Of a stretch of DNA of 64,000 nucleotides, positions 10,214 through 64,000 are shown piece after piece. Source of the DNA: a virus (Duplodnaviria > Caudoviricetes); IMG/VR virus record IMGVR_UViG_2639763012_000002, positions 1 through 64,000 of that record; one strand, 5' to 3'. The notes beneath the pieces are model-generated. The model worked only from the letters and a program-made list of their open reading frames with translations. It did no database searches and was not told the DNA's origin. Position numbers and translations under genes: made by a program. The first letter of the stretch is position 1. The number at the start of each line of letters is the position of its first letter.

Positions 10214-10314
10214 GTGCTGCTCCGGTCGGTCGAGGGGGTGGCTGGTGAGGGAAGCGTTTCCACGTCAACGGGCCATAATGGAAAAGAATTTCCGCTACCT
10301 GGAAGTAGGTTACT

Positions 10315-10902
10315 GTGGCCGATCACCACCCAGGCGAACAGCAACCCCGCGACGAGGCCCACGAGTTCGAGCCGTGGCAGCAGCGCCCCGACGAGGAGGC
10401 CGCCGAGCACGAGCTGTTCATGAGGTTCTGCGGGTTGCTCGATGACCGCCTGGACCGAGTCGCCGACGCCCTGGGTGAGCCCCTCAACCGCATCGCGCCC
10501 CTGTACGATCGGCATGCCTGGGCGCCCCGCCGTGACGCCTACTGGGACCACCGCACCCAGCGCGCTGCCGACTCCCGGGTACGGCAACTCACCGCCCTGT
10601 CGGAGCAGATGGTGGCGCTGGCCGCCGTCGCCATCGCCAAGGCAACCAGGGCGACCCACACGCTGGATGCGGACATGCTCACGCCGCTGGACATCTCCCG
10701 CCTGTCCGCGTCCGCGTCCCGCCTAGCCGAGTCCGCCGCCACCCTCACCGGCATCCGCTCGGTCGTCTCCACCCTCAACCCGGCCGAGGAGGGCGTCACC
10801 AACGACGAGATCGCGGCCCGCATCGATCAGCTCCTGGAGCGCGCCGACGGGGACCGTATCGCCGACCTGGAGCGCCTGGTCACCGGCGGCCGGCCGTCGT
10901 GA
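10315..10902 (+). CDS. Putative terminase small subunit
   Basis: Helical 195-aa ORF GTGA-coupled to TerL; WAPRRDAYWD motif. Confidence 0.6.
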   Translation: MADHHPGEQQPRDEAHEFEPWQQRPDEEAAEHELFMRFCGLLDDRLDRVADALGEPLNRIAPLYDRHAWAPRRDAYWDHRTQRAADSRVRQLTALSEQMVALAAVAIAKATRATHTLDADMLTPLDISRLSASASRLAESAATLTGIRSVVSTLNPAEEGVTNDEIAARIDQLLERADGDRIADLERLVTGGRPS

Positions 10903-17629: not shown

Positions 17630-19666
17630 ATGAACCTCGAAGAAATCCTCGCGCAACTCCGCGAGATCGACTCCAACCTCACCGCCGAGGAGCAGACCCA
17701 GGCCCGCCGACACCTCCTCGACGAGGTCTTCGCCTCCACCAGCATCGACCTCGCCGCCATGAGCGCAGCCGTGCGCGAGAAGGGCGGAGCGGTCGACCCG
17801 ACCAACGCCGACATCAGCGAAGAAGCCCTCGCCGAGTTCGGCCTGCTGTCCGAGGTGTCCGACGCGGTCAACACCCGCATCGCCGCCATCGAGGAGCAGC
17901 GCGCGAAGGAGCAGCGCGCCGCCCACGCCGCAAAGCTCGCGGAGAAGATCGCCGCTACGAAGGCGCTCGACGCCGCCCCCGCTGGCGGGGGTGGCGGGGG
18001 CGGCGGCGCCCCGGTCACCGCCTCCGGCGGCAGCCGCGGCCCGTCCGCCGGCGGCCCCGCCCGCCGCGAGCACGTCATCATGGTCGCCGCCTCGGACCTC
18101 CCGAATCACTTCTCCGGGCAGACCATCGCTGACGGCCGCGCCCTGACCGCCGCCGCGATCGCCCGCGCCCGGTCCCTGGCCCGCTCCGGCTCCGGCCAGC
18201 GCGTCCCCCTGGTCTCCCTCCAGCGGCAGGCTCCCGACACGCACCTCGTCACTGACGAGATCCGCGACTGGGAGCGCCTGAACACCGCCGCCGACGAGTC
18301 CCGCCTCCCCGGCGGCTCCCTGGCTGCCTCCATGCTCAAGCGGCAGTCCCTGACCGCCTCGACGCCGATCCCCGGCGGCCCGTTCGGCGGCTACGCCTGG
18401 TGCGCGCCGATGGAGCTGCGCGAGGAGTACTGCCCGGTTGACGGGTCGTTGGACGCGATGCTCGACATCCCGACGCTGGTCACCACCCGCGGCGGCGTCA
18501 TGTTTCCCCGCACCCCCGACTTCAGCGCCCTGTACGAGCCGTTTTGTTTCTCGGACGACGACGTGCAGCTGGGCTACGACCTCCAGAAGCCGTGTGTCAG
18601 CCTGCCGTGCCCGGATGGCTGGGACGAGTTCAAGTTGGAGGGCTGCTCCTTCTGCCTGGAGACCGGGATCCTGCAGGCGCGGATCGAGCCGCTGACGGTG
18701 CAACGCGCCATCACCGAGCTGACGATCGCGCACCAGCGGCACGCCAACCGGATGCGCATCCAGTCGATCGTCGACCAGATCGGCGGCATGTCCGGCGGCC
18801 ACACCGACCTGACCGAGTGGGGCAACCACGGTCCGGGCCTCATCGAGAGCCTGCTGTCGTTCGTGGAGTTGCAGGCTGAGCACATCCGCACCCGCCGCCG
18901 CCTGGCGCTCAACACGACGTTGGAGGCCATCTTCCCGCGCTTCGCGCTGGGCGTGCTGCGCGCTGACCTGTCCAAGAAGAACGCGATCGCGGGCCGCTGG
19001 GCCGCCAGCGAGCAGGACGTCATCAACTACCTGCTCACCAGGGGTATTCGCCCGCAGTTCGTGTGGGACTGGCAGGACGAAGAGCTGTCCTCCGACGCCA
19101 CGCCCACCCAGTGGCCGGACCAGATGTCGTTCGTCATCTACCAGGCCGGCGCATTCGTGGCGATCACCGGCCCGAGCGTCCAGATCGAGATGGTTCACGA
19201 CAAGGCCCTGTTGCAGGCCAACCGCGAGATCAGGCTGTTTTCTGAGGACACCACCACCATCGCCTACCGGTGCGGCGCCGCCAAGAGTTACACCGTGCCG
19301 CTGTGCCCCACCGGCGTCTCCGGCGGCCAGGAGGTCATCACCTGCTCCCCGGGTGGCGGGGACGGCGGCGGCGAGGGCCAGGCTCAGGCGCAGACGACTG
19401 TCATCAACGAGCTGGTCGCCGCGCTCCAGCAGATGCTAGCCACTGCCCAGTCGCCGCAGCTCGCTGCCGTTGGCGCTCCCGTGGCGGCGGCCGGGGCCGG
19501 CCAGGGCGCCGCTGCCCCGCAGCAGGCCGCCGTCGCCGAGCCTCTGCTGGAGGCCGCCGTGGCTACGCCGGTCGCGTCGGCCGGAGCCAGCGTCACCGCG
19601 CCCAGCACCGCGGCGCAGAACGGGGCCGGCTCTAGGGGCTCGCGGTCAAGCAAGGGCTCCAAGTAG
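17630..19666 (+). CDS. Major capsid protein with N-terminal scaffold region and Ala/Ser-rich C-terminal extension
   Basis: WCAPME, DIPTLVTTRGG, KPCVSLPCP; strongest codon bias; first gene of rightward virion operon. Confidence 0.85.
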   Translation: MNLEEILAQLREIDSNLTAEEQTQARRHLLDEVFASTSIDLAAMSAAVREKGGAVDPTNADISEEALAEFGLLSEVSDAVNTRIAAIEEQRAKEQRAAHAAKLAEKIAATKALDAAPAGGGGGGGGAPVTASGGSRGPSAGGPARREHVIMVAASDLPNHFSGQTIADGRALTAAAIARARSLARSGSGQRVPLVSLQRQAPDTHLVTDEIRDWERLNTAADESRLPGGSLAASMLKRQSLTASTPIPGGPFGGYAWCAPMELREEYCPVDGSLDAMLDIPTLVTTRGGVMFPRTPDFSALYEPFCFSDDDVQLGYDLQKPCVSLPCPDGWDEFKLEGCSFCLETGILQARIEPLTVQRAITELTIAHQRHANRMRIQSIVDQIGGMSGGHTDLTEWGNHGPGLIESLLSFVELQAEHIRTRRRLALNTTLEAIFPRFALGVLRADLSKKNAIAGRWAASEQDVINYLLTRGIRPQFVWDWQDEELSSDATPTQWPDQMSFVIYQAGAFVAITGPSVQIEMVHDKALLQANREIRLFSEDTTTIAYRCGAAKSYTVPLCPTGVSGGQEVITCSPGGGDGGGEGQAQAQTTVINELVAALQQMLATAQSPQLAAVGAPVAAAGAGQGAAAPQQAAVAEPLLEAAVATPVASAGASVTAPSTAAQNGAGSRGSRSSKGSK

Positions 19667-28398: not shown

Positions 28399-30798
28399 AT
28401 GGCTGTCCTCCTCGACCCCACCGGGCCGGTGTCGCCGCTGCTGCCGGTCGGCACCCGCCTTTCGCAGGGGCGGGTGCATCAGCAGGCCGCGGTCGATCCG
28501 GTCACCGGCGAGGTGTATGTCACGCAGGTGGTGGACGGTGGGCGGCAACTGGCCGGCGAGGACGCCCCGGTATCCGGCGCGGCGCGGGCAGCGCGCGGCG
28601 ACCTGGCGATCAGCCGCGTCTCCCCCGACGGCGACCTGCTGGGCAGCATGTACGTGCGGCGCTTCGACCACGGCTCGGGCCTGGGCGTCGAGTGGGTGGG
28701 CGAGCAGCTGCACCTGTGGACTGGCTACGACGCGGCTGAGGTCGCGGAGGGCCGCAACGCCCACGGGCGCTTGGTTGCCCGGTTCCCGTTCCAGGACGGT
28801 GCGGTGCTGGATGTCGGGGCGCCGGAGGTCGAGGTGTTCGATCCGGTGCCGGGGGCGCGGTCGATCACCCCGGGCTTGGACCTGGCGCACGGCCAGGTCG
28901 GCGCCCGCTACTCGGCCGGCGGCGAGTTGCGGTACCGCGTGTGGAGCCATGAGGCGTTCGTGGCCCACGAGTTCGACGATCCGCTATGGGACGCCCCCTT
29001 CCCTGACGGCGCAGCATCGGACTACCAGGCGTGGACGCTGTTCGGGGAGTACATCTACCAGCACCACGGCACCGGCTACAGCGACAGCAACCCGGGCGGC
29101 AACGCCCGGTTCGTCATCGTCTCCCTGCGCACCGGCACGGTAGTGCGCAACGTGCCCAACGAGCACCACGAGGAGTTGGAGTACCGCGAGGCGGAGGCCA
29201 TCGGCGTCCTGGCGAGCGGGCCGCTGGCGGCCGACGGGCCCCGCCTGTTCTTCGGGTTCGCGGTCGGCGCCGCCGGTGAGCGCGGGGTGGCGCTGTACGC
29301 GACCGAACCCGAGCCGGGCCCCGGCACCTTCATATCCGCCGTGCCAGCCCCGTCCGGCGCCGGTATCGAGCTGACGGTCGCGATCCAGGACCCGGCCAGC
29401 GTGGTGACGTGGCGCGTCACCCGCCCCGGCGGACATCTGTTGTTCGCCGGGACGGGCGCGGAGGCCGAGGCGATCGACTGGCCATCAACGATGCTGGACA
29501 CGGCGCCGCCACGGTGTACGCCGACACACTACGTCCTCACCATCGAACGCGTCGGCCAAGCGCCGCAGACCCTCACCACCGAGGAGATCACCTACACGCC
29601 GCCGGGCGGCTGCGGCACAGTCGCGCCGGTCGCCGGCGGCGCCAACGTGCTGGGCTGCGCAGGCGAGTATGCGGCGCGGGTCCACTGGCGCGGCGGCGCA
29701 CTGGAGTTGCCGCTGCAACTCCTCGACGACGCCGATGCGATGGAGTGGTCCCGCACCGAGCGGGACGTGGCAGACGCGTCGGTCACCATCCCCAAGGGCG
29801 CGCACCCGGACTGCTGCACGGAGGTGCAGCAGATCCACCCCTGGGTGCACGAGCTGTCGATCTACCGGGCGGATGACCGCACACCGATCTGGCAGGGCCC
29901 GATCACCCGGGTGCGCTCCCGCCGCGGGGAAATCGTCATCGAGGCGCAGGACGTCACTGCCTGGCTGGAGCAGCTGGTCAACACCTACCGCGTCGGCTAC
30001 ACCACGGCGACACCGGACGCCCAGGGGCGCCGTCGCGGCACGATCGCCTACATCGCGGCCAACCATCTCAGGCTGAACATGATCGAGTCGGCGCTGTCTG
30101 ACCCTGCGGATTACGCGGGGATCATGCAGCACCTGGTGGTGCGTGAGGACGGCCTGCCCACCATCAAGGTCGAGCGCGACGGATCAACGAACGACGCGAT
30201 CTGGACGGTGCCGATGGCGGACGCCTGGCGGGAGTGGACCAAACGCGGCCTGACCTGGACCACCGTGGGCAGGTCGATCGTGCTGCGTGGCTCACCGACC
30301 GAGCAGACGATCCCGCAGGCCCGCCTGACCATGGATGATTTCGCCGGCGACGTGGAGATCATCCGCGACGGCCTGGAGGCTGCCACCTACGCATTCGCCA
30401 CGACCCAACGACCGGGCAGCCAGGACATCTCCGAGGGTGTGACGGTCGGCACCGGCCGCACGGGGACGCCGTACGGGCGGCTGGATCGGATCGTCGTGGT
30501 CGATGAGGACGACCCGGACCCGGCCGACCTGGAGCGCGCCGCGCGGGAGGAACTGTCAGGCCGCTACCCGGCGCCAATGGTGATCTCCATGCCGGCCGAC
30601 GCGCAACTCGCCCCCGACGCACCGATCACGGTGCGGCAGCTGGTGCCCGGGGAGCGCATCGACGTGACCGGCGACGAGTGCTGGCGCATCCAGCGAGGGT
30701 TCCGACTCACCGACGTGCGCGGGGTGTGGCAGTCCGGGGTGGAGCGGATCTCGATCGGCCTGGTGCCGCTCGGCGATACGGAGGTGCCGACGGGTTGA
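28399..30798 (+). CDS. Tail-tip protein: TagC/P68-RBP-like beta-propeller fused to a Gp37-like baseplate hub domain
   Basis: N-term QQAAVD..GDLAISR..LGSMYVRRFDHG, YQAW, YREAEAI; C-term PWVHELSIYR..WQGPI..AQDVTAWL, LVPGERI. Confidence 0.7.
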   Translation: MAVLLDPTGPVSPLLPVGTRLSQGRVHQQAAVDPVTGEVYVTQVVDGGRQLAGEDAPVSGAARAARGDLAISRVSPDGDLLGSMYVRRFDHGSGLGVEWVGEQLHLWTGYDAAEVAEGRNAHGRLVARFPFQDGAVLDVGAPEVEVFDPVPGARSITPGLDLAHGQVGARYSAGGELRYRVWSHEAFVAHEFDDPLWDAPFPDGAASDYQAWTLFGEYIYQHHGTGYSDSNPGGNARFVIVSLRTGTVVRNVPNEHHEELEYREAEAIGVLASGPLAADGPRLFFGFAVGAAGERGVALYATEPEPGPGTFISAVPAPSGAGIELTVAIQDPASVVTWRVTRPGGHLLFAGTGAEAEAIDWPSTMLDTAPPRCTPTHYVLTIERVGQAPQTLTTEEITYTPPGGCGTVAPVAGGANVLGCAGEYAARVHWRGGALELPLQLLDDADAMEWSRTERDVADASVTIPKGAHPDCCTEVQQIHPWVHELSIYRADDRTPIWQGPITRVRSRRGEIVIEAQDVTAWLEQLVNTYRVGYTTATPDAQGRRRGTIAYIAANHLRLNMIESALSDPADYAGIMQHLVVREDGLPTIKVERDGSTNDAIWTVPMADAWREWTKRGLTWTTVGRSIVLRGSPTEQTIPQARLTMDDFAGDVEIIRDGLEAATYAFATTQRPGSQDISEGVTVGTGRTGTPYGRLDRIVVVDEDDPDPADLERAAREELSGRYPAPMVISMPADAQLAPDAPITVRQLVPGERIDVTGDECWRIQRGFRLTDVRGVWQSGVERISIGLVPLGDTEVPTG

Positions 30799-44671: not shown

Positions 44672-45154
44672 TCACTCGGCTCCGGCGAGGCGGAGGATGG
44701 TGGAGCGAATGAGGTCGGTGAGGATCGTTCCGTAGCCTCCGGAGCGGGTGGCGGCGACAGCTGTGGCGATCCCAAGGAACGCGGGGATGATCATCCGCTT
44801 CCACTTGGGGCCGAATGTCAGGAGTGCGAGGACGATCGATACGGCGGCCGGGCCCGGGTCGCCGAATCGGCCGCTCGCGTCCCCTTCGAGGGCTCCGGAA
44901 GGGATGGAGTGGATGCCGTTGGCGATGTCGGCCCAGGCGCCGCCGGCGGCGAGGGCGACGATGCCGAAAATGATCGAGGTGACACCGACGGACTGCTTGG
45001 TGTTGATCCGGATGGTGTCAGATCCGCGGAGCCCGAGGAGCAGCAGCGTGCCGATGATGAGGGCGACGCCGGAGGCTGTGATGGTGCCGAGGACCTGGGC
45101 GCCCGGGGCGGCCTCGGCGGCGAACTCCGCTGCGTGGGTGAGGTGACTGTTCAT
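44672..45154 (-). CDS. Multi-TM membrane protein
   Basis: About four hydrophobic helices; operon with spread-like genes. Confidence 0.7.
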   Translation of the reverse strand: MNSHLTHAAEFAAEAAPGAQVLGTITASGVALIIGTLLLLGLRGSDTIRINTKQSVGVTSIIFGIVALAAGGAWADIANGIHSIPSGALEGDASGRFGDPGPAAVSIVLALLTFGPKWKRMIIPAFLGIATAVAATRSGGYGTILTDLIRSTILRLAGAE

Positions 45155-47284: not shown

Positions 47285-47745
47285 GGCGGGGGCCTTAGTC
47301 GAGTTCGGCTACGTCGGCGGGGTGGAAGAGGTTGTGGCCGTTGTCGTCGCGGCTGCGGGGGGTGAGGCGGCCTCGGTTGACCCAGGAGCGGACGGTGCCG
47401 GGAGAGACGCCTTTGAGCTTGGCGACCTGGGCGCCGGTGAGGAGGGGCTGGTCGTTGTCTGCTGCGACGTTGCGGGCGGCTTCCTCGACGACCTGTTCCA
47501 GATGCGACGTGTCGGCCGTTGCGGTGTTGCGGCTGCTGGGTGTTGCGGGCTCAGGCGCTGCAACGTCTTGGGGGGTGGTGTTGGGTGTTGCGACCGTTGC
47601 TGCCACGGGAGTTGCGGTGTTGCGGGGTGCACCGGGTGTTGCGATGCCTGGTGTTGCGGGCGGCGTTGCGGTGTTGCGGGTGCCGTTGCGGCGTTGCAGT
47701 GTCGCGGTGTTGCGGGCTGGCGTTGCGGGTCGGCGTTGCGATGCT
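46805..47745. repeat. Dense intragenic GTTGC(G) motif array
   Basis: About 17 copies in 47469-47740 and a dozen or more (both orientations) in 46805-47270. Confidence 0.75.
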
Positions 47746-48959
47746 TCGAGCACACGACGGTTCGCTTCCTCCCGCTCGGTGTTGATGCGCTCGATCTCGG
47801 CCTGGGCGCGGGCGTCTTCGATCTGCTCCTGCCGGCGGGCGGCGCGTTCCTCACGCTCCCGCTCGGCGGCGAGGCGGGCGGCCTCGGCGCGGGCGCGTTC
47901 CTCGGCGATGCGGCGTGCCTCCTCGGCTGCGGCCTGAGCGCGGGCCTGGGCAGCCTCGGTGTCGGCGTCCGCGGCGGCCTGGCGGGCGCGCAGTTCGGCG
48001 AGCCGGGTGGCCTCCTCTTCGTCGGCGAGGCGCCGCTGCCGTTCCGCCTCCTCGCGGCGGGCTTCCTCTTCCTCGGCGGCGCGCTTCCGCTCCTTCTCGG
48101 CGGCCTCGTCGGCGCGCCGCAGCTCCTCGTCGACGTCGCGCTTCTGGTTGGTGTGCTGGCTGGTGCGGCGCATGGCGCGCAGGCTCTGCTGGTGCGCTGC
48201 TTCGGCGCGTTCCTCGCGCTCCTGGTCAGGCAGGGCGAGGGCCTCGGCGAGGGGGAGACCGTAGCGGGCCATGCGCAGTGGCAGGACGCGTTCCGCGCTG
48301 CGCCACCACAGCCGGCCGTGCTCCTCCCGCATCCGGGCGCGGTAGACCTTCATGTCGCGGCGGCGGTCGACCACTTCGCGGTAGGTGGTGAGGCCGTGGC
48401 GGGTCTGGGCGCGCCAGATGCGGGCGGTGGCGATGGGGGCGACGAGCCACATGCGGCCGGGTGGGTATTCGGTGGCGGTTCCGGCGTTGATGTCGGCGGC
48501 GCGGGCGATGGCGTGCCGGGCGGCCTCGGCGACGAGGATGAACAGGCATGGGGTGGTGGCGTGCATGGCCATGGCCAGCATGTCGGGGTAGGCCGACCAG
48601 GCGTTGAACACTACGGTGGCGGCGGTCAGCGTCCATGCGGCGGGGCGCAGCAGGGGGAAGGGGATACGCAGCCACGTGAGGAGGAGGTCCAGGGCGACGC
48701 AGATCCCGATGCCGAAGTCGAGGCCGATGGGGAACCAGGCCGCGAACGACCCGAAGCCCTTGCGCTCGGCCAGCTCGGCGACGGCGTGGTAGGAGCCGAC
48801 GAACCCGATGCCGGCGATGACGAGGGCGCCGGCGATGACGATGCCGACGAGGGCCCACTGGCCGCGGCTCAGCTCAACGCGCGGCCGGAGGGCTTCGCGG
48901 GGCTGGGTGGCGGGGTGAGGCTGCTCCCGGGGTGGGGTGGGGGCGGCCTGGGCTTGCAT
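47295..48959 (-). CDS. DUF2637 (spread-like) membrane protein with coiled coil and C-terminal MerR/xis-type HTH
   Basis: GFVGSYHAVAELA..FPIGLD..ATVVFNA..; LLTGAQVAKLKGVSPGTVRSWVNRGRL. Confidence 0.85.
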   Translation of the reverse strand: MQAQAAPTPPREQPHPATQPREALRPRVELSRGQWALVGIVIAGALVIAGIGFVGSYHAVAELAERKGFGSFAAWFPIGLDFGIGICVALDLLLTWLRIPFPLLRPAAWTLTAATVVFNAWSAYPDMLAMAMHATTPCLFILVAEAARHAIARAADINAGTATEYPPGRMWLVAPIATARIWRAQTRHGLTTYREVVDRRRDMKVYRARMREEHGRLWWRSAERVLPLRMARYGLPLAEALALPDQEREERAEAAHQQSLRAMRRTSQHTNQKRDVDEELRRADEAAEKERKRAAEEEEARREEAERQRRLADEEEATRLAELRARQAAADADTEAAQARAQAAAEEARRIAEERARAEAARLAAEREREERAARRQEQIEDARAQAEIERINTEREEANRRVLEASQRRPATPARNTATLQRRNGTRNTATPPATPGIATPGAPRNTATPVAATVATPNTTPQDVAAPEPATPSSRNTATADTSHLEQVVEEAARNVAADNDQPLLTGAQVAKLKGVSPGTVRSWVNRGRLTPRSRDDNGHNLFHPADVAELD

Positions 48960-55511: not shown

Positions 55512-55785
55512 CCGGACGCCGATGAGTGCCCGCGCGACGCTGGAGGTCATGGTCCGCACGGGCCGGGGCCAGATGACGGTCTGGTCTCCGACCGAGGTCA
55601 AGCAGGCGCTCGACCGCTACCGGGCTGAGGCGCGGGCCGACGTGCTGGTCGAGCAGGCCGACGAGATGGTGGACGCCTGCCCGGCGCACGGGGAGGCCGA
55701 GGAGGCGTGGACGGTGTGCCACTGCGAGGTCGCCGACGAGATGCGGCGCCTCGCCGACCTGATGCGTCCGGGAGGTGACCGGTGA
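55504..55785 (+). CDS. Hypothetical protein
   Basis: CPAHG..CHCEVA motif; coupled to DUF5131 gene. Confidence 0.6.
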   Translation: MANRTPMSARATLEVMVRTGRGQMTVWSPTEVKQALDRYRAEARADVLVEQADEMVDACPAHGEAEEAWTVCHCEVADEMRRLADLMRPGGDR

Positions 55786-56852
55786 GCGCGACGACCAAGA
55801 TCGAATGGACGGACGCTACATGGAACCCGGTGACGGGCTACACGAAAGTCTCCCCAGGGTGCGACAACTGCTACGCGGAGACGCTGGCGGAGCGCTTCCG
55901 GGGCACCGGCGGCCACTACTTCGAGCAGGGCTTCGACGTGACATTGCGGCCGGAAAAGCTGCTGGAGCCGCTGCGGTGGCGGAAGCCGCGCCGGGTGTTT
56001 GTCAATTCGATGAGCGATCTCTTCCATGCCTCGGTGCCGGACGAGTATGTGGCGCGGGTGTGGGCGGTGATGGCCCTGGCCCCGCAGCACACATTCCAGG
56101 TGCTGACGAAGCGGCACGGGCGGCTGCGGGCGCTGCTCAGCAGCCCCCAGTTCCGGGAGCTGTGCGAGGCAGAGTGGAACTGGTTGGTGGGCGACGAGTC
56201 CACTCCGATGCCGCAGTACCGGCGTGACGCGTTCATGCGGCAGTGGTGGAGCGAGTTCTCCAGGCCGTTGCGCAACGTCTGGTTGGGCGTCTCTGCGGAG
56301 GACCAGGAGCGCGCCGATCTGCGGGTGCCGGCCCTGTTGGAAACGCCGGCTGCTGTGCGGTTCCTGTCCTGTGAACCACTCCTCGGGCCGATCGACCTCG
56401 AAGGGCCGCTGGACGGGCCCGGGACCCGCCGGCAGTTGACGTACTGGCTGACGGGACGCCCCGGGGTCGGGGCGCCGAGCCCGACGCTCAGCGGTGTGGA
56501 CATGCGGCCCCTGACGGTGGGGCCGCGCCTTGACTGGGTGATTGCTGGGGGTGAGTCCGGGCGCGGTGCGCGTCCGATGCACCCCGACTGGGCCCGCCGG
56601 CTGCGGGACCAGTGCCAGCAGGCGGGCGTGCCGTTCCTGTTCAAGCAGTGGGGCGAGTACGTGCCGACTGGCTACCTGGTGATCGGTGGCACGGGCAGCG
56701 GCACGCTGGCCTTCAAGGACCCGGTGGACGAGTTGGGCCACCGGGTGGAGGTGCGGCGCGTGGGGAAGGGGCGCGCTGGCCGTGAGTTGGATGGACGGGT
56801 CTGGGACGAGTTCCCGACCCCGAGCCGGGCGCGCGGGGGTGAGGCGTCGTGA
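55782..56852 (+). CDS. DUF5131 (phage Gp37/Gp68) family protein
   Basis: TKIEWTDATWNPVTG..SPGCDNCYA, FVNSMSDLFH, QVLTKR, FLSCEPLLG, GGESG, FLFKQWG. Confidence 0.95.
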   Translation: MSATTKIEWTDATWNPVTGYTKVSPGCDNCYAETLAERFRGTGGHYFEQGFDVTLRPEKLLEPLRWRKPRRVFVNSMSDLFHASVPDEYVARVWAVMALAPQHTFQVLTKRHGRLRALLSSPQFRELCEAEWNWLVGDESTPMPQYRRDAFMRQWWSEFSRPLRNVWLGVSAEDQERADLRVPALLETPAAVRFLSCEPLLGPIDLEGPLDGPGTRRQLTYWLTGRPGVGAPSPTLSGVDMRPLTVGPRLDWVIAGGESGRGARPMHPDWARRLRDQCQQAGVPFLFKQWGEYVPTGYLVIGGTGSGTLAFKDPVDELGHRVEVRRVGKGRAGRELDGRVWDEFPTPSRARGGEAS

Positions 56853-57568
56853 GCGTGGAAACCCTCACTGCCGAGCTGCCGGCCGATGTGGAGGCCCTGC
56901 GGGAGCTGTGTCTGGCGCAGCGGGAGCAGCTGCGGCGGCTGGAGCGGGACGCGTTGACGGGGCTGCTGCGGCGTGAGCCCTGGCACGACCGCGCGGAGGC
57001 GTGGCTGGCCGATCCGGAGACCGGCCCGTGGGCGCTGGCATTCCTGGATCTGGACGGGTTCAAGCCGGTCAACGACCGGCTGGGGCACGCGGCCGGCGAC
57101 GAGCTGCTGCGCGCCATCGGTGGCCGCCTCTCCGCGTGGGCCGAGCGGGCGGGCGCTCTGGTTGGCCGGCTGGGCGGCGACGAGTTCGCCGCGCTGTGGC
57201 CGTCTGCCGGGCCGGAGGCGGCCCGAGTGGGGGCGGCCGAGGTGGCGCGGCGCATCGCCGTCCCGGTGCTGCTGACCGGGGACGGGCTGCCGCCTGCTGT
57301 GCGCGGCGCCCAGGTACGGGTGACGGCCTCGGTCGGCGTTGTTCGGCAGGCGGACCATCCGGACGCTGGGCTGGGCGAGTTGCTGGGGCTGGCCGACGCG
57401 GCGATGTACCGGGCCAAGGAGGCCGGCGAGGCCGGCGCTCCGGGGCCCCGGGTGTGGCTGGCCGACCCGGACGTCGCCGCATGGCGCGAGCGGGCTGCCT
57501 GCCAGCGGCCGGCTGGTGAGCGGCGGGCGGGACGGCCCTACCCAGCCCCCACCACCCCGCCCGAATAA
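56849..57568 (+). CDS. Diguanylate cyclase (stand-alone GGDEF)
   Basis: DALTGL, DLDGFKPVNDRLGHAAGDELL, GRLGGDEF, ADAAMYRAK. Confidence 0.93.
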   Translation: MSVETLTAELPADVEALRELCLAQREQLRRLERDALTGLLRREPWHDRAEAWLADPETGPWALAFLDLDGFKPVNDRLGHAAGDELLRAIGGRLSAWAERAGALVGRLGGDEFAALWPSAGPEAARVGAAEVARRIAVPVLLTGDGLPPAVRGAQVRVTASVGVVRQADHPDAGLGELLGLADAAMYRAKEAGEAGAPGPRVWLADPDVAAWRERAACQRPAGERRAGRPYPAPTTPPE

Positions 57569-57900: not shown

Positions 57901-59421
57901 GTGAGCATCGAGGCGCTGAACTACGCCGTGAGAGTCCGGGTAGGCGACCTGACGGCGAAATTTGTTCTCGGCCGTCTGGCCGACCGCGCTGACGAGCGCT
58001 ACTCCTGCTACCCCTCGGTCCCGCTGCTGGCCGCCGAGGCCGAGAAATCACCGCGCGTCATCCAGCGGGCGCTGGCCACGCTCCGCACGTTGGGTCTGGT
58101 CTCCGACCGTGTGACCATGCGCGCCGACGGCAGCCAAGGGGCGAACAGGTACTACCTGCACGGCCCTTGGGACGACTACGGCGGCACTGGGACGCCGTTC
58201 CCGGAGATCGTGACGCCCAAGGAGGCGCGGGCCGCGCGGTGGGCTCAGGCGCCAGCTGAGGGCGAGTTCCGGGCTGGTACGGCGGCGGCCGTCGCCGAGG
58301 ACGGGGACGAGGAGGCCGCCGCCGAAGTGCGGCGGCGCGTGGCCGAGGCGGCGCAGGCCGGACAGGAACGCCTCGAAGCGCGACGCGAGAAGGCAAGGAA
58401 AGCGGCCGCGGCAGCCCACGCGAAATCGCAGGTCAGCGACATTTCCGCAGGTGGGGATGGGGTGACGTCCACGTCGTCCCCCCCGGTGACGTGCACGTCG
58501 CCCCCCGGGGTGACGCCCACGTCACCCCTAGAACCATCAGTAGTAACCACCAACGAGGAACCCTCTCCCGTCCGTCCGTCTCGTAACGGTGAGGAGTGTG
58601 CGCGTGAGGCCGGAGACGAAACGGAGGGACGGACGGGCAGCGGCTCCCCCAGGGCAGGCGGTGGCACATCCGGCGCCCGGCCGGGGCCGGGTACCCCGGG
58701 TGTGCCGACGACCGAGGCCGAGGGCGAGGACCAGGGGCAGGACGTGCCGGCGGTGCGCGGCGCCGCAGCCCGGCCAGTGCCGTCCGGCGCACCTGCCGGC
58801 CGCCGGTCGCCCGGTGTCGAGTTGCTGCTCGCGATCGGCCAGGAGCGGCCGGAGTATCTGCTGACCGGCCGGACGCTGTCGGATCAGGGCCTGATGGTCA
58901 CGGGGATGCTGGACGCCGGGTGGTCGCCGGAGTTGGTGCGGCAGATCGTGGCGGGCCGGCCGCTGCCGCCGGCGGGTGAGATCCGGGCGAGCGTGGGGGC
59001 GATCGTCGCCGCCCGGCTGCGGGATGCGGTCAGCTCTGGCCCCCCGCCCCCACCCGGGCAACACCCGTTCGGGGCCGGCTCGTTGAACGGGAATGACCAC
59101 GGCCACAGCCTCGACCACGGCGCCGGCAGTTCGGGCAGGCCCGGCAGTCCCGGGCGGCCCTGGGACACGCCCACGCCGACCGCGCCCACCTACGGCCAGC
59201 ACCTCACCCGGGTCATGTCGGAATGCGAGGGCCAGGACGGGGCGTGCGGCCGACCCGTGCGCCCCGGCTACGACCTGTGCACCGGCTGCCTGGACCTGCC
59301 CTGGTGCGAGTGCGGCGCGGCCCGCATCGACCCCGGCCGAGGCGAGGAGCGCTGCCCGGACTGCGGGGCGGCGGCCGAGGCCCTGGGCGCCGCGCTCCAC
59401 GCTCCGCACACGGCCCGCTGA
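57901..59421 (+). CDS. Phage replication initiator-like protein (N-terminal HTH_36)
   Basis: MSIEALNYA..AKFVLGRLADRADERYSCYPSVPLLAAEAE..IQRALATL..DGSQGANRYYL; C-terminal Cys clusters. Confidence 0.8.
   Translation: MSIEALNYAVRVRVGDLTAKFVLGRLADRADERYSCYPSVPLLAAEAEKSPRVIQRALATLRTLGLVSDRVTMRADGSQGANRYYLHGPWDDYGGTGTPFPEIVTPKEARAARWAQAPAEGEFRAGTAAAVAEDGDEEAAAEVRRRVAEAAQAGQERLEARREKARKAAAAAHAKSQVSDISAGGDGVTSTSSPPVTCTSPPGVTPTSPLEPSVVTTNEEPSPVRPSRNGEECAREAGDETEGRTGSGSPRAGGGTSGARPGPGTPGVPTTEAEGEDQGQDVPAVRGAAARPVPSGAPAGRRSPGVELLLAIGQERPEYLLTGRTLSDQGLMVTGMLDAGWSPELVRQIVAGRPLPPAGEIRASVGAIVAARLRDAVSSGPPPPPGQHPFGAGSLNGNDHGHSLDHGAGSSGRPGSPGRPWDTPTPTAPTYGQHLTRVMSECEGQDGACGRPVRPGYDLCTGCLDLPWCECGAARIDPGRGEERCPDCGAAAEALGAALHAPHTAR
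58461..58529. repeat. Three 24-bp-period palindromic iterons inside the initiator gene (putative origin)
   Basis: GGTGACG-N4-CGTC(G/A) units at 58461, 58485, 58509. Confidence 0.75.
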
Positions 59422-60927: not shown

Positions 60928-61215
60928 TCATCCCTGGCGGGCGAACACCAGGAACAACACCACGACCACGACCACCAGCGCGCACGACACCCACCGATCC
61001 AGGCCGGACAGTTCGTCCGGTTCGGGCTCAGGGGCGTCCTGGTACGGCTCGGACGGTTCCGGCAGCTGAACGTCGATCCGCTCGCCGTCCGGGGCCAGCC
61101 CGTGGTGGGCCGCGGCGCGGTGCTCGGTCTGGTCGTCCTGGGCCTGGCGACGGGTACGGCGGGGCTCGGCGGTGACACCGCACAGGGCGCAGCGGTAGGT
61201 GTAGGGGCGGGACAC
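60928..61215 (-). CDS. Zn-finger membrane protein (paralog of 6531 and 48999 genes)
   Basis: YRCALC...HRAAAHHGLAPDG plus C-terminal TM; TACGCT -10-like box just upstream. Confidence 0.7.
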   Translation of the reverse strand: MSRPYTYRCALCGVTAEPRRTRRQAQDDQTEHRAAAHHGLAPDGERIDVQLPEPSEPYQDAPEPEPDELSGLDRWVSCALVVVVVVLFLVFARQG

Positions 61216-61309
61216 GACCGGTGAGCGTAGTGGTCAGTCGGCCGTGCCGCAGCGAGATCATGCGGATTCACCGGCCGCCCCACGCCGGCCGACCGTGCGG
61301 GCTATCCTC

Positions 61310-61342
61310 GTCCTGATCATCAGTCCCTGGAGGGATCATGCC
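61310..61342 (+). CRISPR. Solitary degenerate type I-B-like repeat upstream of cas8 (not an array)
   Basis: GTCCTGATCATCAGTCCCTGGAGGGATCATGCC following a TATCCT -10 box; similarity to actinobacterial I-B repeats judged from memory. Confidence 0.45.
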
Positions 61343-61385
61343 TCGGGCTCCAGCCGGTGCCCGTCGTCCCCCTGGGAGCCCTTTC

Positions 61386-62723
61386 GTGACTACTACCACT
61401 GTCCTGTCGCTCACTCACCACCCCCTCCAGCGTGCTGGCGCATGGGCTGTCACGCACATCGCGGGCCGGTTCCGGCCCGAGGAGGTGTCAGGGGATGACC
61501 TGGAGCTGGTCGTTGGGCTGATCGTCCGAGACGCGACTCGGGCTGCTGTCGCGCCGAAGGACGATGGCCCGGCTGGCTACGACTGGTGGAAGGTACTCTT
61601 CGCGCTCTTCCCGAACTCCAAGCCGACCCACGCCAAGCGCGGCCGGGACCAGGAGGTGATCCGTAGCAAGGTCGCGGCGCTGTTCGCCCCGGACGGCGTC
61701 ACCGGCCGGTCGTGGCCGTGTACGTTCTGCGCCCAGATGACGGGCACGGCGTGGGGGAAGTCGAATCTCCCCCTGTTCGACACGTCCAAGGCGTTGAACA
61801 ACGTGCCGCCGGGCGTGCCGGGTTGGCCGATCTGCCGTGGATGCCGGGTCGCGATCTGGACCCTGCCCTACGGGGCGTGGGTGACGGCTGGCTCGGCGAC
61901 GGTTTTCACCTGCGAGGACGAGGCAGCCGAGCGCCGGTTCGTCGAGCACAGCGTGGCCCGGTCCCGGCGGATCGTCGACGGCGGGTTCGAGGCGCTGGCG
62001 GCGGACGGGGTGGAGGACGGGCCGTTCGCCCTCGCCCTCCAGCAGCTGCGGGATGTCGGGGGCCGGCAGCACGCCGCCGGCGGGCTGGCCAGTTCCACGT
62101 TGTGGCGGTTCAAGAACGACAACGAGGAGCCCTGGCTGCGGGCGTCCTTCACCCGTCGGGCCGTGCCGCGCTTCCTGGCTCTGGTGCAGGGCAACGCGCC
62201 GCTGCGGGAGGCATGGGCGCTGCTGGAGGAGGCGTTGGTACAGCGGGACCGGCGCGGCAGGGTCGTGGCCAGCGGTGCGGGAGAGGCGGCGCGGCTGGTG
62301 TTCGAGGCCGAGGACGGAACGAGCCGGTCGTTGCTGTGGGCGTTGCACGAACTACGAGGCTCTGAGCGCCTGACCTCGGCGCAGCGGCACAACATCGCCC
62401 GGCTGGCCGGCGAGTACGGCCGGCATGTACTGGGGATCGATGATGGCAATCTGGCGCCGGCTGCCGAGGTGTTGGCCACGTGGATCTGGCGTGGCGGTCC
62501 CGAGGGGCAGCGGCAGCAGCGGCGGGCGGAGTACCTGGAGGCCGCGCCCAACCCCTACAAGTTGGGGTTGGTGATGATGCGGGCGAACTCCCGGCTGTTC
62601 CTGGCCGGTCTGCCGGTCAGGGCGACGGTGGAGGACTGGCGTCCGCTGCTCCAGTCTGACGCGCGTGCGTGGGCGCGTCGGCTGCTGTTGGGTGCGGCCG
62701 TGGATCGGCAACCCGTCGGCTGA
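61386..62723 (+). CDS. cas8: Orphan type I-B CRISPR large subunit Cas8b1/Cst1-like protein
   Basis: LTHHPLQRAGA N-terminus, LFPNS, CTFC..KSNLPL..LNN..ICRGC..WTLPYG (CxxC_CxxC) layout, helical C-terminal domain; GGGAG RBS before GTG 61386. Confidence 0.7.
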   Translation: MTTTTVLSLTHHPLQRAGAWAVTHIAGRFRPEEVSGDDLELVVGLIVRDATRAAVAPKDDGPAGYDWWKVLFALFPNSKPTHAKRGRDQEVIRSKVAALFAPDGVTGRSWPCTFCAQMTGTAWGKSNLPLFDTSKALNNVPPGVPGWPICRGCRVAIWTLPYGAWVTAGSATVFTCEDEAAERRFVEHSVARSRRIVDGGFEALAADGVEDGPFALALQQLRDVGGRQHAAGGLASSTLWRFKNDNEEPWLRASFTRRAVPRFLALVQGNAPLREAWALLEEALVQRDRRGRVVASGAGEAARLVFEAEDGTSRSLLWALHELRGSERLTSAQRHNIARLAGEYGRHVLGIDDGNLAPAAEVLATWIWRGGPEGQRQQRRAEYLEAAPNPYKLGLVMMRANSRLFLAGLPVRATVEDWRPLLQSDARAWARRLLLGAAVDRQPVG

Positions 62724-62760
62724 TCTCGTGGGGTGGTCTGCGTGGCTCCCCCAACCCGCT

Positions 62761-62805
62761 TGTAACGTGCCCCCGTTGACTTTCGTAACGGGGGCACGTT
62801 ACATT
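62761..62805 (+). promoter_or_regulatory. Promoter overlapped by a perfect 17-bp inverted repeat (double operator)
   Basis: tgtaacgtgcccccgtt-N9-aacgggggcacgttaca; TTGACT-18-TACATT. Confidence 0.8.
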
Positions 62806-62842
62806 CGTGGTGTTGGGCCACCCACTCACCATGGAGGACACC

Positions 62843-63469
62843 ATGACCGACGCCCCCCTCGCCACCGTCACCGTCGCCGACTGGGACGCCGCCGAGGTGT
62901 ACCTCGCCGAGCACACCAGCGACGCCACCTACACCCTCACCGAGCTGACCGCCGCCCACGACGCCGACCTCCACGAGATCCGCCTCGACCCCGAAACCCG
63001 CACCATCTGGTGGGCCTACGACAACGGCCCCGTCCGCGGCAAGGGCTGGACCGTCGACCACCTCACCCCGGCGGCCGCCGCCGAACAGGCCGAGCCCATC
63101 ATCGACACGACCCAGGACCGCATGGGCGACCCCGAGGGGTACGCCGGGCAGATCCACCGCCTCGACGACGACCAGGCGCTCCTCGACGAGTACACCGAGA
63201 TCCTGCGCCTGACCCTCCCTGCCGACCCGCAGGCCGCCCGCGCCGAGATCCGCACCCGCCGTGCTCTCGCCGACGCCTTGTGGCAGCGCGCCGACGCCGA
63301 GCTGGTCCGCAGCCTCGCCGGCAGCGACCGGGGCGGCAAGGCCGCCGCCGCACGGACCCTGGGCATCACCCGGATGCAGGTCACCCGTCTCATCAGCGAC
63401 GACGACAGGCGGCGGGACGCCCTCACCCAGGCCGTGCGGGAGGCGGAAGCCGACTACCCCGACCGCTGA
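62843..63469 (+). CDS. Acidic N-terminal domain fused to a C-terminal HTH
   Basis: GGAGG RBS; D/E-rich first ~125 aa; GGKAAAARTLGITRMQVTRLI HTH. Confidence 0.8.
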   Translation: MTDAPLATVTVADWDAAEVYLAEHTSDATYTLTELTAAHDADLHEIRLDPETRTIWWAYDNGPVRGKGWTVDHLTPAAAAEQAEPIIDTTQDRMGDPEGYAGQIHRLDDDQALLDEYTEILRLTLPADPQAARAEIRTRRALADALWQRADAELVRSLAGSDRGGKAAAARTLGITRMQVTRLISDDDRRRDALTQAVREAEADYPDR

Positions 63470-63500
63470 TCGACCCAGCCGCGCCGCGCTATAGTGCTAA

Positions 63501-63529
63501 CCTCATCGCCCCTACGAGGGGACCCCTGC
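63501..63529 (+). CRISPR. Solitary type I-B-like repeat (not an array)
   Basis: CCTCATCGCCCCTACGAGGGG with CCCCT-ACG-AGGGG hairpin, 6 nt after a TATAGT -10 box; 3' handle region diverged (ACCCCTGC). Confidence 0.55.
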
Positions 63530-63579
63530 CAGCCAGCCGTGGCCCATGGTGCGCCACGGCCGACCGACGGACGGCCCTC

Positions 63580-64000
63580 GTGCACTACGGCGACCGCGAC
63601 GGATACGGCCAGTACGGCATCCTGGACGACGACGGCGAGCGGGTGCTGTGCCACGAGTGCGGGCGGCGCTACCGCCAGCTCCCGTACCACATCAATCGGG
63701 CGCACGGGATGACGGCAGTCGAGTACCGGGCAGCCCACGGCCTGAGCGTGACGCAGCCGTTGGCGTCCGACAGCCTGACGGCGACGCAGCGCGCCAACTC
63801 CACCAGGGTCTACGCCCAACGCCCCGACATCCGGGCCATGCTCGCCGACGCGCTGAGCCGGGGCTGCTCCGCGGCGGCGTCCCGGGCTGCGCAGGCCGCC
63901 GCGCCGGACTCCCTCGCCCGTGCCGCCGAGCGGCATCGCCGCCGGGTCGCATCTGCTCGCCTGGCGGAGCGCGAGCGGGCCGCGAAGCGGCGCAGGCTCG
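63580..64000 (+). CDS. Ros/MucR-like Zn-finger protein, truncated by the window end
   Basis: Manual translation: DGERVLCHECGRRYRQLPYHINRAHGMTAVEYRAAHGL..PLAS. Confidence 0.75.
   Translation, partial: MHYGDRDGYGQYGILDDDGERVLCHECGRRYRQLPYHINRAHGMTAVEYRAAHGLSVTQPLASDSLTATQRANSTRVYAQRPDIRAMLADALSRGCSAAASRAAQAAAPDSLARAAERHRRRVASARLAERERAAKRRRL

What the first reader, a model, noticed from the sequence alone, without database searches (positions are those of the whole stretch)
61300..64000. Phage-borne orphan Cas8 module with repeat-like RNAs and autoregulated partners: candidate Cascade-hijack or anti-CRISPR system
Seen: a 445-aa protein with the CxxC_CxxC, PNS and HPLQ layout I recognise as type I-B Cas8b1/Cst1. 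No cas5, cas6, cas7, cas3 or array occurs anywhere in the window, and its direct neighbours are non-cas genes. Two solitary repeat-like hairpins (61310, 63501), an operator-controlled acidic/HTH gene and a MucR-like gene sit within 2.7 kb. Established: Cas8 reads the PAM and recruits Cas3, and phages use both Cas mimics and solitary repeats (Racr) against CRISPR. Inference: the phage swaps its own Cas8 into host Cascade, either as a Cas3-blind decoy, to change PAM specificity, or to build an RNA-guided regulator.
Basis: partly seen in the sequence, partly recalled or inferred. Interest (0 to 1): 0.9.

Follow-up and report, generated by a model that had tools for sequence, protein, structure and literature searches.

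The report
Prophage-borne orphan Cas8, likely anti-CRISPR
A prophage carries a lone, tail-less copy of its host's own CRISPR large-subunit gene (cas8), and the host's CRISPR array holds a perfect spacer against the same inserted block, so the copy is most likely a decoy that keeps the host's CRISPR defence from killing the lysogen.

Summary
The ORF at 61338-62723 is real. [quoted passage not shown] It is the only extra cas gene in the genome and lies in a prophage-bearing block of about 100 kb that a related genome lacks at this site.

Compared with 78 operon-encoded relatives:
- it lacks the conserved acidic C-terminal tail;
- it sits on a 4-10 times longer branch;
- it has changed 10 of 90 near-invariant positions.

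A second orphan, in another Streptomyces mobile element, shows the same three traits and the same downstream neighbour.

One host spacer matches the inserted block 39 of 39 with the inferred TCG PAM, although the host cas genes look intact.

Best reading: a Cas-homolog anti-CRISPR that poisons Cascade, the kind already shown for AcrIB3 and AcrIB4. This is untested here.

The "repeat-like RNAs" are weak. One hairpin shares a 12-nt core with the family repeat (E 0.27); the other does not match. The operator plus acidic HTH gene is real but also occurs without cas8. Verdict: new member of a known kind.

The parts
61338..62723 (+). Orphan cas8b paralog, 461 aa. It keeps the HPLQ, PNS and CxxC...CxxC motifs and lacks the acidic C-terminal tail of operon-encoded Cas8b.
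   Evidence: ORF. 59% identity, E 2.9e-150, to the gene between cas6 and cas7 of the host locus. Motifs and missing tail. AF2 model pLDDT 88.2, pTM 0.86.
61311..61343 (+). Small hairpin overlapping the ribosome-binding site and ATG of the orphan cas8. Its 12-nt core 61324-61335 (stem plus TGGA loop) equals the consensus hairpin of the family's CRISPR repeat in crRNA sense; the flanks are degenerate.
   Evidence: Covariance model R1: 11.7 bits, E 0.27, core only. Fold z +1.18. No counterpart at the second orphan locus. The GGAGG in it is also the expected Shine-Dalgarno sequence (read).
62752..62812 (.). Inverted-repeat operator that encloses a promoter-like site (TTGACT-18-TACATT, 62776-62805) for the downstream gene.
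   Evidence: z -9.4. Analogous inverted repeats lie upstream of the homologous gene in L056, L104 and L106.
62843..63469 (+). Acidic protein (208 aa, pI 4.57) with a C-terminal HTH-like segment; probable autoregulator. Its family is tiny: 14 proteins.
   Evidence: AF2 model pLDDT 93.6; no PDB fold match, best E 0.32.
63494..63525 (+). Second small hairpin (5-bp stem, 3-nt loop) between the HTH gene and the MucR-like gene; not repeat-like by the model.
   Evidence: Absent from the 75 hits with E <= 10. Fold z +0.36.
63535..64000 (+). 5' part of a MucR/Ros zinc-finger gene. Its start codon was not fixed. The frame runs off the window and continues for about 340 more codons.
   Evidence: Pfam ROS_MUCR E 2.6e-10, above cut-off. 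Continuation to G000:C17:256904.

Best explanation
The gene encodes a host-matched, defective Cas8b that acts as an anti-CRISPR.

Proposed steps:
1. Expressed from the prophage, it competes with the resident Cas8b for its place on the type I-B Cascade (Cas5-Cas7-Cas6-crRNA).
2. The complexes it forms cannot complete interference. The reason would be the loss of the conserved acidic C-terminal tail and changes at several otherwise near-invariant positions.
3. This lets the prophage persist in a host whose array already holds a spacer against it.

Shown here: homology, orphan and prophage location, loss of the tail, fast but constrained evolution, a second similar case, the self-targeting spacer with its PAM, and intact host cas genes.

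Inferred: that the protein is made, that it enters Cascade, and which step it blocks (DNA binding or Cas3 recruitment).
For: 1. True Cas8b paralog. It is 59% identical (E 2.9e-150) to the gene lying between cas6 and cas7 of the host's complete locus cas6-cas8-cas7-cas5-cas3-cas4-cas1-cas2 plus arrays. The family occupies that position in 78 of 80 loci.

2. Orphan on a mobile element.
- It is the only extra cas gene in the genome.
- The window carries terminase, major head, tape-measure and receptor-binding genes.
- The flanks C17:184147 and C17:287486 lie 103 kb apart here and 3.7 kb apart in relative G403.
- The only recombinase on this stretch is a large serine recombinase at the right end.

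3. Specific loss.
- The last 40 residues hold 4 acidic residues in the window copy and 3 in the second orphan, against 8-18 (median 13) in all 78 operon copies.
- An acidic tail is also present in 5 of 5 members of a distant I-B subfamily.

4. Constrained but altered.
- It keeps 80 of 90 columns that are at least 95% conserved; operon copies miss 0-6, median 1.
- Its end branch is 1.05 against 0.28 for the host copy.
- Synonymous sites are saturated, so the frame has stayed open for a long time.

5. Second case. L056 (Streptomyces sp. CB02056) has an orphan cas8 without tail and with a long branch (1.14). It lies upstream of a homologous operator plus HTH gene, in a genome with its own canonical locus, L041.
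- Each orphan groups with its own host's lineage: window+HOST 96/94, and L056 inside a 96/88 clade with L041.
- The two orphans join in 0 of 200 bootstrap trees.

6. Self-targeting.
- 1 of 21 spacers of the cas-adjacent arrays matches C17:281965-282003 at 39 of 39.
- The target lies inside a phage exonuclease gene of the same inserted block.
- TCG lies directly 5' of it. The same trinucleotide flanks 6 of 14 distinct family spacers that hit this genome (7 of 16 rows).
- Host Cas6, Cas7, Cas5, Cas3 and Cas1 deviate at only 1-3 of 44-228 conserved columns.

7. Precedent. AcrIB3 (a Cas5 homolog) and AcrIB4 (a homolog of the last 90 residues of Cas8b) join Cascade and disable it. 358 orphan viral cas genes were predicted in IMG/VR (preprint 10.1101/2023.06.24.545427; passages and section 8 read).
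Against: - No experiment, no expression data, and no binding prediction was available.
- No promoter-like site was found upstream of the gene.
- In the cited preprint, over-expressing genuine Cas8b did not inhibit immunity, so homology alone is not enough.
- Self-targeting can be tolerated for other reasons: another inhibitor among the many unknown small genes of the 100-kb block, a silent cas operon, or a block made of more than one element.
- Only two orphans were found. None was in IMG/VR or in GenBank phages, and no relative closer than the host's own copy turned up in 5.8 billion proteins or in about 800 genomes of the family and genus.
- In CB02056 the only candidate self-target is degenerate: 30 of 35 identical, E 0.0015.
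- The AU test does not reject a single origin of the two orphans (p 0.083).
- No detectable similarity to any solved Cas8, so the roles of the tail and of the changed residues are unknown.
Confidence: 0.5

Rival explanations
1. Retargeting rather than blocking. The prophage Cas8b is a working large subunit with altered specificity, for example a different PAM. It would spare the TCG-flanked prophage target while Cascade stays usable, or it would turn Cascade into a Cas3-less RNA-guided binder or regulator.
For: The fold and 80 of 90 conserved columns are kept. Some changes fall in conserved loops of the N-terminal part: LNTLPPG becomes LNNVPPG, and the PRGR motif is lost in both orphans. The self-target carries the standard PAM.
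Against: Which residues read the PAM is unknown, because no structural homolog exists. Loss of a tail that all 78 operon copies and a distant subfamily keep looks like loss of a function, not a change of specificity. No mini-array or guide is in the window. No precedent was found in the searches.
Confidence: 0.13
2. Relic or hitch-hiker. A cas8 copy picked up by the element has no present function, and the self-target is tolerated for unrelated reasons.
For: The branch is long, with 10 of 90 conserved positions changed and the C-terminus truncated. It is a singleton in all databases searched. Open frames persist easily at 70% G+C.
Against: At about one substitution per site it still keeps 89% of the conserved columns, all four zinc-finger cysteines and a full-length frame with coding-type G+C at third positions (0.86). 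An AF2 model built on the family alignment is confident. A second orphan shows the same set of traits.
Confidence: 0.17
3. The RNA is the active part. The repeat-like hairpin in the 5' leader (and perhaps the second hairpin) is a solitary-repeat decoy for Cas6 or Cascade, as in Racr, or a Cas6-read switch that couples production of the orphan Cas8 to host CRISPR activity.
For: The core 61324-61335 equals the consensus stem and TGGA loop of the family repeat, in crRNA sense and on the coding strand, and it ends 2 nt before the ATG. Racrs are described in PMC10651486 (seen only as a search listing with the start of its abstract).
Against: E 0.27 window-wide. Four window hits score better, and the one whose sequence I read (44763-44798, E 0.042) lies inside an ORF. 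The 3' handle is not kept. The GGAGG is simply what a ribosome-binding site looks like. Folding is no better than shuffles. Hairpin 2 fails the model. Nothing comparable lies near the second orphan. Rfam has no hit.
Confidence: 0.08

Closest known systems
AcrIB4 and AcrIB3 of Listeria seeligeri mobile elements (Cas-homolog anti-CRISPRs; preprint 10.1101/2023.06.24.545427, passages read)
   Same: Homologs of type I-B Cascade subunits, encoded on mobile elements away from cas operons, in hosts with the cognate system. The proposed action, entry into Cascade to give a defective complex, is the one shown for them.
   Different: AcrIB4 matches only the last 90 residues of a 562-aa Cas8b. This protein is almost the reverse: a near full-length Cas8b that lacks only the last 35-45 residues. 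The host phylum and the Cas8b subfamily differ. Activity is untested here. The Listeria inhibitors form their own old clades, whereas these two orphans each group with their host's lineage. Sequence similarity to AcrIB4 itself was not tested, because no sequence was at hand.
Operon-encoded Cas8b (named 'Cst1' by some sources) of actinobacterial type I-B systems
   Same: 57-59% identity to the host's copy. Same length class, the same invariant motifs including CxxC...CxxC, and a confident common fold model.
   Different: Not in a cas operon. No acidic C-terminal tail. 10 of 90 near-invariant positions changed. End branch about 4 times longer than the host copy's.
AcrIF3 (mimic of the Cas8f helical bundle that blocks Cas2-3 recruitment; as summarised in the same preprint)
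   Same: An inhibitor that imitates part of the large subunit.
   Different: AcrIF3 has no significant sequence similarity to Cas8f and binds the nuclease. Here the similarity is plain, and the expected target is the Cas8 slot of Cascade.
Racr / solitary repeat units (PMC10651486, seen as a listing with the start of its abstract)
   Same: A single repeat-like hairpin on a phage genome next to a candidate anti-CRISPR gene.
   Different: The match is limited to a 12-nt core (E 0.27), lies in an mRNA leader over the ribosome-binding site, is not conserved at the second locus, and the second hairpin does not match.
acr-aca operons (an HTH autoregulator downstream of an anti-CRISPR gene; recalled knowledge, with the AcrIIC9 autoregulation example in the preprint passages)
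   Same: A candidate inhibitor gene directly followed by an HTH gene with an inverted-repeat operator. The HTH unit recurs in other elements with different upstream genes.
   Different: The operator and promoter lie between the two genes, so they control the HTH gene and not visibly cas8. No similarity to a named Aca family was found (Pfam hits below cut-off). The N-terminal acidic domain has no known fold relative.

Membership tests
Cas8b, large subunit of (actinobacterial) type I-B Cascade | Sequence homology to the protein encoded between cas6 and cas7 | tested here: met
   59% identity, E 2.9e-150, to the host gene at that position. The family lies there in 78 of 80 loci.
Cas8b, large subunit of (actinobacterial) type I-B Cascade | Encoded within a cas operon beside cas7, cas5 and cas3 | tested here: not met
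   No other cas gene in the window, in the next 20 kb, or anywhere on this contig.
Cas8b, large subunit of (actinobacterial) type I-B Cascade | Family motifs (HPLQ, PNS, CxxC...CxxC) and a curated profile match | tested here: inconclusive
   All motifs are present. Pfam Cas_CXXC_CXXC gives only E 0.087, 13.4 bits against a cut-off of 21. The host's genuine copy is also below cut-off (15.9 bits). NCBIfam gives nothing.
Cas8b, large subunit of (actinobacterial) type I-B Cascade | Conserved acidic C-terminal tail | tested here: not met
   4 acidic residues in the last 40, against 8-18 in 78 of 78 operon copies. The protein ends about 45 residues early.
Cas8b, large subunit of (actinobacterial) type I-B Cascade | Fold like a solved Cas8 | tested here: inconclusive
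   The confident model (pLDDT 88) has no PDB match (best Foldseek E 0.43). The profile search of PDB sequences gave 0 hits. The whole subfamily has no solved relative.
Cas8b, large subunit of (actinobacterial) type I-B Cascade | Assembles with Cas5, Cas7 and crRNA | not testable with these tools
Cas-homolog anti-CRISPR (viral orphan cas gene, AcrIB3/AcrIB4 kind) | Cas homolog on a virus or prophage, with no array or cas operon nearby | tested here: met
Cas-homolog anti-CRISPR (viral orphan cas gene, AcrIB3/AcrIB4 kind) | Host carries the cognate CRISPR-Cas type | tested here: met
   Complete type I-B locus and three arrays on contig C23.
Cas-homolog anti-CRISPR (viral orphan cas gene, AcrIB3/AcrIB4 kind) | Inhibits interference by that system | not testable with these tools
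   Indirect only: a perfect self-targeting spacer with PAM, tolerated beside intact cas genes.
Cas-homolog anti-CRISPR (viral orphan cas gene, AcrIB3/AcrIB4 kind) | Diverged from the genuine Cas proteins | tested here: met
   End branches 1.05 and 1.14 against a median of 0.37. 10 and 12 of 90 conserved columns changed. Tail lost.
Racr / solitary repeat unit | Significant likeness to the host's CRISPR repeat | tested here: inconclusive
   Hairpin 1 core only, E 0.27. True repeats score 24.5-46.3 bits.
Racr / solitary repeat unit | Second unit at 63501 also repeat-like | tested here: not met
   Not among the 75 hits with E <= 10.
Aca-type autoregulator | HTH protein with an inverted-repeat operator over its promoter, next to an inhibitor gene | tested here: inconclusive
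   The operator and promoter-like site are clear, and the inverted repeat recurs upstream of the homologous gene in 4 of 5 loci. The HTH is only sub-threshold. cas8 is the upstream gene in 2 of 5 loci.
MucR/Ros zinc-finger regulators | Pfam ROS_MUCR above the curated cut-off | tested here: met
   40.9 bits against 25.4, E 2.6e-10.

The most novel reading that the evidence does not exclude
Host-matched decoys. Actinomycete mobile elements would repeatedly take the resident lineage's own cas8, or keep theirs matched to it, strip the acidic tail, and park the gene upstream of the same autoregulated HTH unit. The result would be a dominant-negative Cas8b tailored to each host's Cascade. In this prophage the decoy's leader would additionally carry a Cas6-readable repeat hairpin over its ribosome-binding site, so that decoy output responds to the host's CRISPR activity.
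Probability: 0.1. Interest if true: 0.8.

Novelty: new member of a known kind. Interest (0 to 1): 0.55.

Why it matters
If confirmed, this would be the first near full-length Cas8 decoy. It would also be the first Cas-homolog anti-CRISPR for the actinobacterial type I-B systems, and it would point to the conserved acidic tail of Cas8b as a functionally essential element.

Three further points follow:
- It would show that such decoys can be drawn from, or kept matched to, the host's own lineage.
- It would give a genetic off-switch for endogenous type I-B tools in Streptomyces-like bacteria.
- The recurring operator plus acidic HTH unit could serve as a marker for finding further anti-defence genes in these elements.

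The general idea, viral cas genes acting as anti-CRISPRs, is already in print. The surprise is therefore moderate.

Tried and rejected
SEARCHES THAT FOUND NOTHING
- Structure and profile routes to 'Cas8': Foldseek of the AF2 model against the PDB (best E 0.43) and against BFVD viral models (best E 0.14). The profile of alignment A1 against PDB sequences gave 0 hits at E <= 10. NCBIfam and PHROGs gave nothing.
- Viral relatives: the IMG/VR scan with A1 had 54 pattern matches, none confirmed. tblastn on 50,697 GenBank phage records gave no match.
- Partner protein fold: Foldseek against the PDB, best E 0.32.
- Rfam on 61000-64000: only sub-threshold miRNA-type matches to the inverted repeat.
- The operator half-site occurs only at its own locus among the 107 loci held at that time.

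CHECKS THAT CAME BACK NEGATIVE OR WEAK
- More orphans: 401 genomes of the family searched with the profile and 401 of the genus with the protein gave only the window copy and the CB02056 copy.
- A distant group (13 matches) proved to be an ordinary second I-B subfamily; 5 of 5 fetched lie in operons.
- Gene conversion with the host copy: no tract of high identity. Nucleotide identity is 64% overall and 49-83% in 30-codon windows.
- One origin of the two orphans: not rejected (AU p 0.083) though disfavoured.
- dN/dS was not computed because synonymous sites are saturated.
- Third array C23:450475-452131: none of its 22 spacers tested aligns over 25 nt or more elsewhere in the genome.
- CB02056: the cas2-side array gave no other match in its genome at E <= 0.01. 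The upstream array gave one 30-of-35 match with a TCG PAM and a perfect 17-nt seed, on the orphan's contig and 39.5 kb away, at E 0.0015 beside three similar-scoring matches elsewhere. This is too weak to count.

TOOLS NOT AVAILABLE
- RNA or DNA sequencing runs: none was listed.
- Supplementary tables of the preprint (Table S3, the list of 358 viral cas genes) could not be seen. They may already list orphan cas8 genes of this kind.

CORRECTION
- A recount gives 7 of 16 rows, from 6 of 14 distinct spacers.

Full report
WHAT IS THERE

The window is 70.5% G+C. It carries a prophage:
- large terminase, 10899-12395;
- major head protein, 17630-19666;
- tape measure, 24230-27148;
- receptor-binding protein, 28399-30798;
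- a replication initiator, 57901-59421.

The finding's region holds, in order:
- an ORF at 61338-62723 (+), 461 aa;
- a strong inverted repeat at 62752-62812 enclosing the only promoter-like site (TTGACT-18-TACATT);
- a 208-aa acidic gene at 62843-63469 with a C-terminal HTH-like segment;
- the start of a MucR/Ros zinc-finger gene that runs off the window.

IDENTITY OF THE 461-AA PROTEIN

Curated profiles barely see it. Pfam Cas_CXXC_CXXC gives E 0.087, below cut-off. NCBIfam and PHROGs give nothing.

A search of 5.8 billion proteins found 219 relatives of about 470 aa in Streptomyces, Kitasatospora, Nonomuraea and others. Most are called hypothetical; about 20 of the 120 listed are named 'Cst1' by a source.

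The decisive result is in the window's own genome. A paralog (59% identity, E 2.9e-150) lies on contig C23 between cas6 and cas7 of a complete locus, cas6-cas8-cas7-cas5-cas3-cas4-cas1-cas2, flanked by arrays. Its neighbours pass the curated type I-B models for Cas7 (Cst2/DevR) and Cas1b.

In 80 loci from other species the family has a Cas7 gene directly downstream in 78. The three incomplete loci are:
- L056, an orphan;
- L090, cas6 plus a truncated cas8;
- L061, which has the Cas7 gene but ends inside it.

The family is therefore the Cas8b of an actinobacterial type I-B variant, and the window gene is a member by descent. The AF2 model is confident (pLDDT 88.2). Neither Foldseek nor a profile search finds any solved relative, so the subfamily is structurally uncharted.

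ORPHAN STATUS AND THE ELEMENT

The genome holds one cas set plus this gene, one Cas1 and three arrays, all on C23.

Relative G403 has the left and right flanks 3.7 kb apart. In this genome they are 103 kb apart, at C17:184147 and C17:287486.

The whole window lies inside this inserted block. The block ends in the only recombinase of the stretch, a large serine recombinase at C17:285786-287285. Phage genes (polynucleotide kinase, a RuvC-like resolvase, an exonuclease) continue between the window and that recombinase. Whether the block is one prophage or a composite is not settled.

HOW THE ORPHAN DIFFERS FROM OPERON COPIES

- Tail. It ends about 45 residues early. All 78 operon copies end in an acidic tail with 8-18 Asp/Glu in the last 40 residues (median 13). 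The orphan has 4. A distant I-B subfamily at about 30% identity also has an acidic tail in 5 of 5 members.
- Conserved positions. It keeps 80 of 90 columns that are at least 95% conserved. Operon copies miss 0-6, median 1.
- Branch length. Its end branch is 1.05 against 0.28 for the host copy.
- Age. Nucleotide identity to the host copy is an even 64%, with saturated synonymous sites. This is an old, maintained gene, not a recent copy or a conversion product.

A SECOND CASE

L056 (Streptomyces sp. CB02056) has an orphan cas8 with these features:
- no tail (3 acidic residues in the last 40);
- 78 of 90 conserved columns kept;
- end branch 1.14;
- the same downstream arrangement of inverted-repeat operator plus a homolog of the 208-aa gene.

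That strain also has a canonical locus, L041.

Both orphans changed three of the same conserved columns, including the glycine of a PRGR motif.

In a careful tree of 31 rows:
- the window copy is sister to its own host's Cas8 (96/94);
- L056 sits in a 96/88 clade with its host's copy;
- the orphans join in 0 of 200 bootstrap trees.

The AU test does not reject a single origin (p 0.083, log-likelihood difference 20.4).

The HTH unit also occurs without cas8. In 401 genomes it matched in 12, strongly in 5. cas8 lies upstream only in the window's genome and in CB02056. The unit's family has 14 members in 5.8 billion proteins.

SELF-TARGETING

Repeat sense was fixed in three ways:
- the family consensus ends in ...GGGAT(C/T)G(C/A)AAC and has a covarying stem pair;
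- a shared leader motif lies upstream of all three host arrays in that sense;
- the PAM result below agrees with it.

I compared 1962 spacers from 81 loci with this genome. 16 rows of at least 26 nt lay outside the CRISPR locus. 7 of them, from 6 of 14 distinct spacers, have TCG directly 5' of the protospacer.

One of the 21 spacers of the host's cas-adjacent arrays matches C17:281965-282003 at 39 of 39, with TCG in place. The target lies in the phage exonuclease gene of the inserted block, 26 kb beyond the window's end.

The other 20 spacers, and the 22 of the third array, have no comparable match.

Host Cas6, Cas7, Cas5, Cas3 and Cas1 deviate at only 1-3 of 44-228 conserved columns.

A lethal self-target beside an apparently intact system is the classical sign that interference is switched off in this cell.

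THE HAIRPINS AND NEIGHBOURS

A covariance model of 56 distinct family repeats scores host repeats at 24.5-46.3 bits.

- Hairpin 1: only the 12-nt core 61324-61335 matches (11.7 bits, E 0.27). Four window hits score better.
- Hairpin 2 is not among the 75 hits with E <= 10.
- Nothing comparable lies near the second orphan.
- Neither hairpin is more stable than shuffles.

The core's identity to the repeat hairpin, in crRNA sense and 2 nt before the ATG, is intriguing. It also contains the expected GGAGG ribosome-binding site. I treat it as a lead only.

The inverted repeat is a genuine operator-like element. It recurs upstream of the HTH gene in L056, L104 and L106. The HTH protein folds confidently (pLDDT 93.6) and has no known fold relative.

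COMPARISON WITH WHAT IS KNOWN

The preprint 'Diverse viral cas genes antagonize CRISPR immunity' (10.1101/2023.06.24.545427; passages and section 8 read) reports the following:
- AcrIB3, a Cas5 homolog, co-purified with Cascade.
- Both AcrIB3 and AcrIB4, a homolog of the last 90 residues of Cas8b, blocked DNA recognition without stopping Cascade assembly. The authors conclude that both assemble into a defective complex.
- Extra genuine Cas8b does not inhibit.
- 358 orphan viral cas genes were predicted in IMG/VR.

The present gene fits that kind. It is a different construct: near full-length and tail-less. It comes from a different phylum and Cas8b subfamily, and its phylogeny matches its host.

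Searches of the held library found no paper on an orphan Cas8 in Streptomyces or on this I-B subfamily. The preprint's Table S3 could not be seen.

MECHANISM AND ODDS

| Reading | Odds |
|---|---|
| Decoy Cas8b takes the large-subunit place on host Cascade and the complex fails, at DNA binding or at Cas3 recruitment, which protects the self-targeted prophage | about 0.5 |
| Relic with no present function | 0.17 |
| Retargeting or PAM switch | 0.13 |
| RNA-based action of the hairpin | 0.08 |
| Something not thought of | remainder |

Expression, assembly into Cascade and the blocked step are all inferred. No binding prediction, RNA data or earlier notes were available.

Noticed in passing
L030:17276 region (Streptomyces sp. 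NPDC005955 locus): One spacer of this array matches the cas1 gene of about 45 other type I-B loci held here (89-100% over 30-38 nt), mostly with TCG or TCC directly upstream. The same locus's own cas1 is unusually divergent (66%). It could be a spacer aimed at other CRISPR-Cas loci, or a cas1 fragment caught in the array.
   Followed up: no
G000:C17:281965-282003 (26 kb beyond the window end; L108:8089-8127): Perfect 39-nt protospacer with a TCG PAM for host spacer L010:15938-15976, inside a phage exonuclease gene (phrog_298).
   Followed up: yes
G000:C17:266258-266293 (L005:12382-12417) and G000:C16:227415-227450: A spacer from another species' I-B array (L012, Streptomyces johnsoniae) matches both places 32 of 36 with a TCG PAM. 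The first lies in the same inserted block, so relatives of this element are targets of I-B systems elsewhere.
   Followed up: partly
G000:C23:450475-452131: A third CRISPR array of about 26 repeats lies 50 kb from the cas locus, with the same leader motif as the two cas-adjacent arrays. None of its 22 spacers tested has a self-match of 25 nt or more.
   Followed up: yes
window 44763-44798 (-): The third-best window match to the repeat model (E 0.042): both flanks and the stem are repeat-like but the loop is longer. It lies inside ORF 44672-45154 (-); probably chance.
   Followed up: partly
G270:C16:114043-114077 (L115:10044-10078): In CB02056, a spacer of the array upstream of cas6 (L041:8973-9007) matches 30 of 35 with a perfect 17-nt PAM-proximal seed and a TCG PAM. 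The site is in an XRE-type gene 39.5 kb from that strain's orphan cas8 on the same contig. E is 0.0015, beside three similar-scoring matches elsewhere.
   Followed up: partly
G214:C15:126377-126556 and G262:C561:4147-4356: Short matches (60-70 residues, E 4e-19 and 8e-28) to the N-terminus of this Cas8 family, in genomes with no full-length copy found by the same search. They may be remnants or small derived genes.
   Followed up: no
L090 (Nonomuraea fastidiosa), 9348-10607: cas6 followed by a truncated cas8 (about 200 residues) with no cas7, cas5 or cas3 behind it. Only 2 spaced repeat matches were found; a decayed locus.
   Followed up: no
window 55782-57568: A DUF5131 protein (Pfam E 1.2e-100) followed by a 239-aa protein matching several PHROGs of unknown function, just upstream of the replication initiator; a conserved phage gene pair of unknown role.
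   Followed up: no
window 47295-48959 (-): A 553-aa protein that combines DUF2637 with a C-terminal MerR/excisionase-type HTH, a combination more usual in actinomycete integrative elements than in phages.
   Followed up: no
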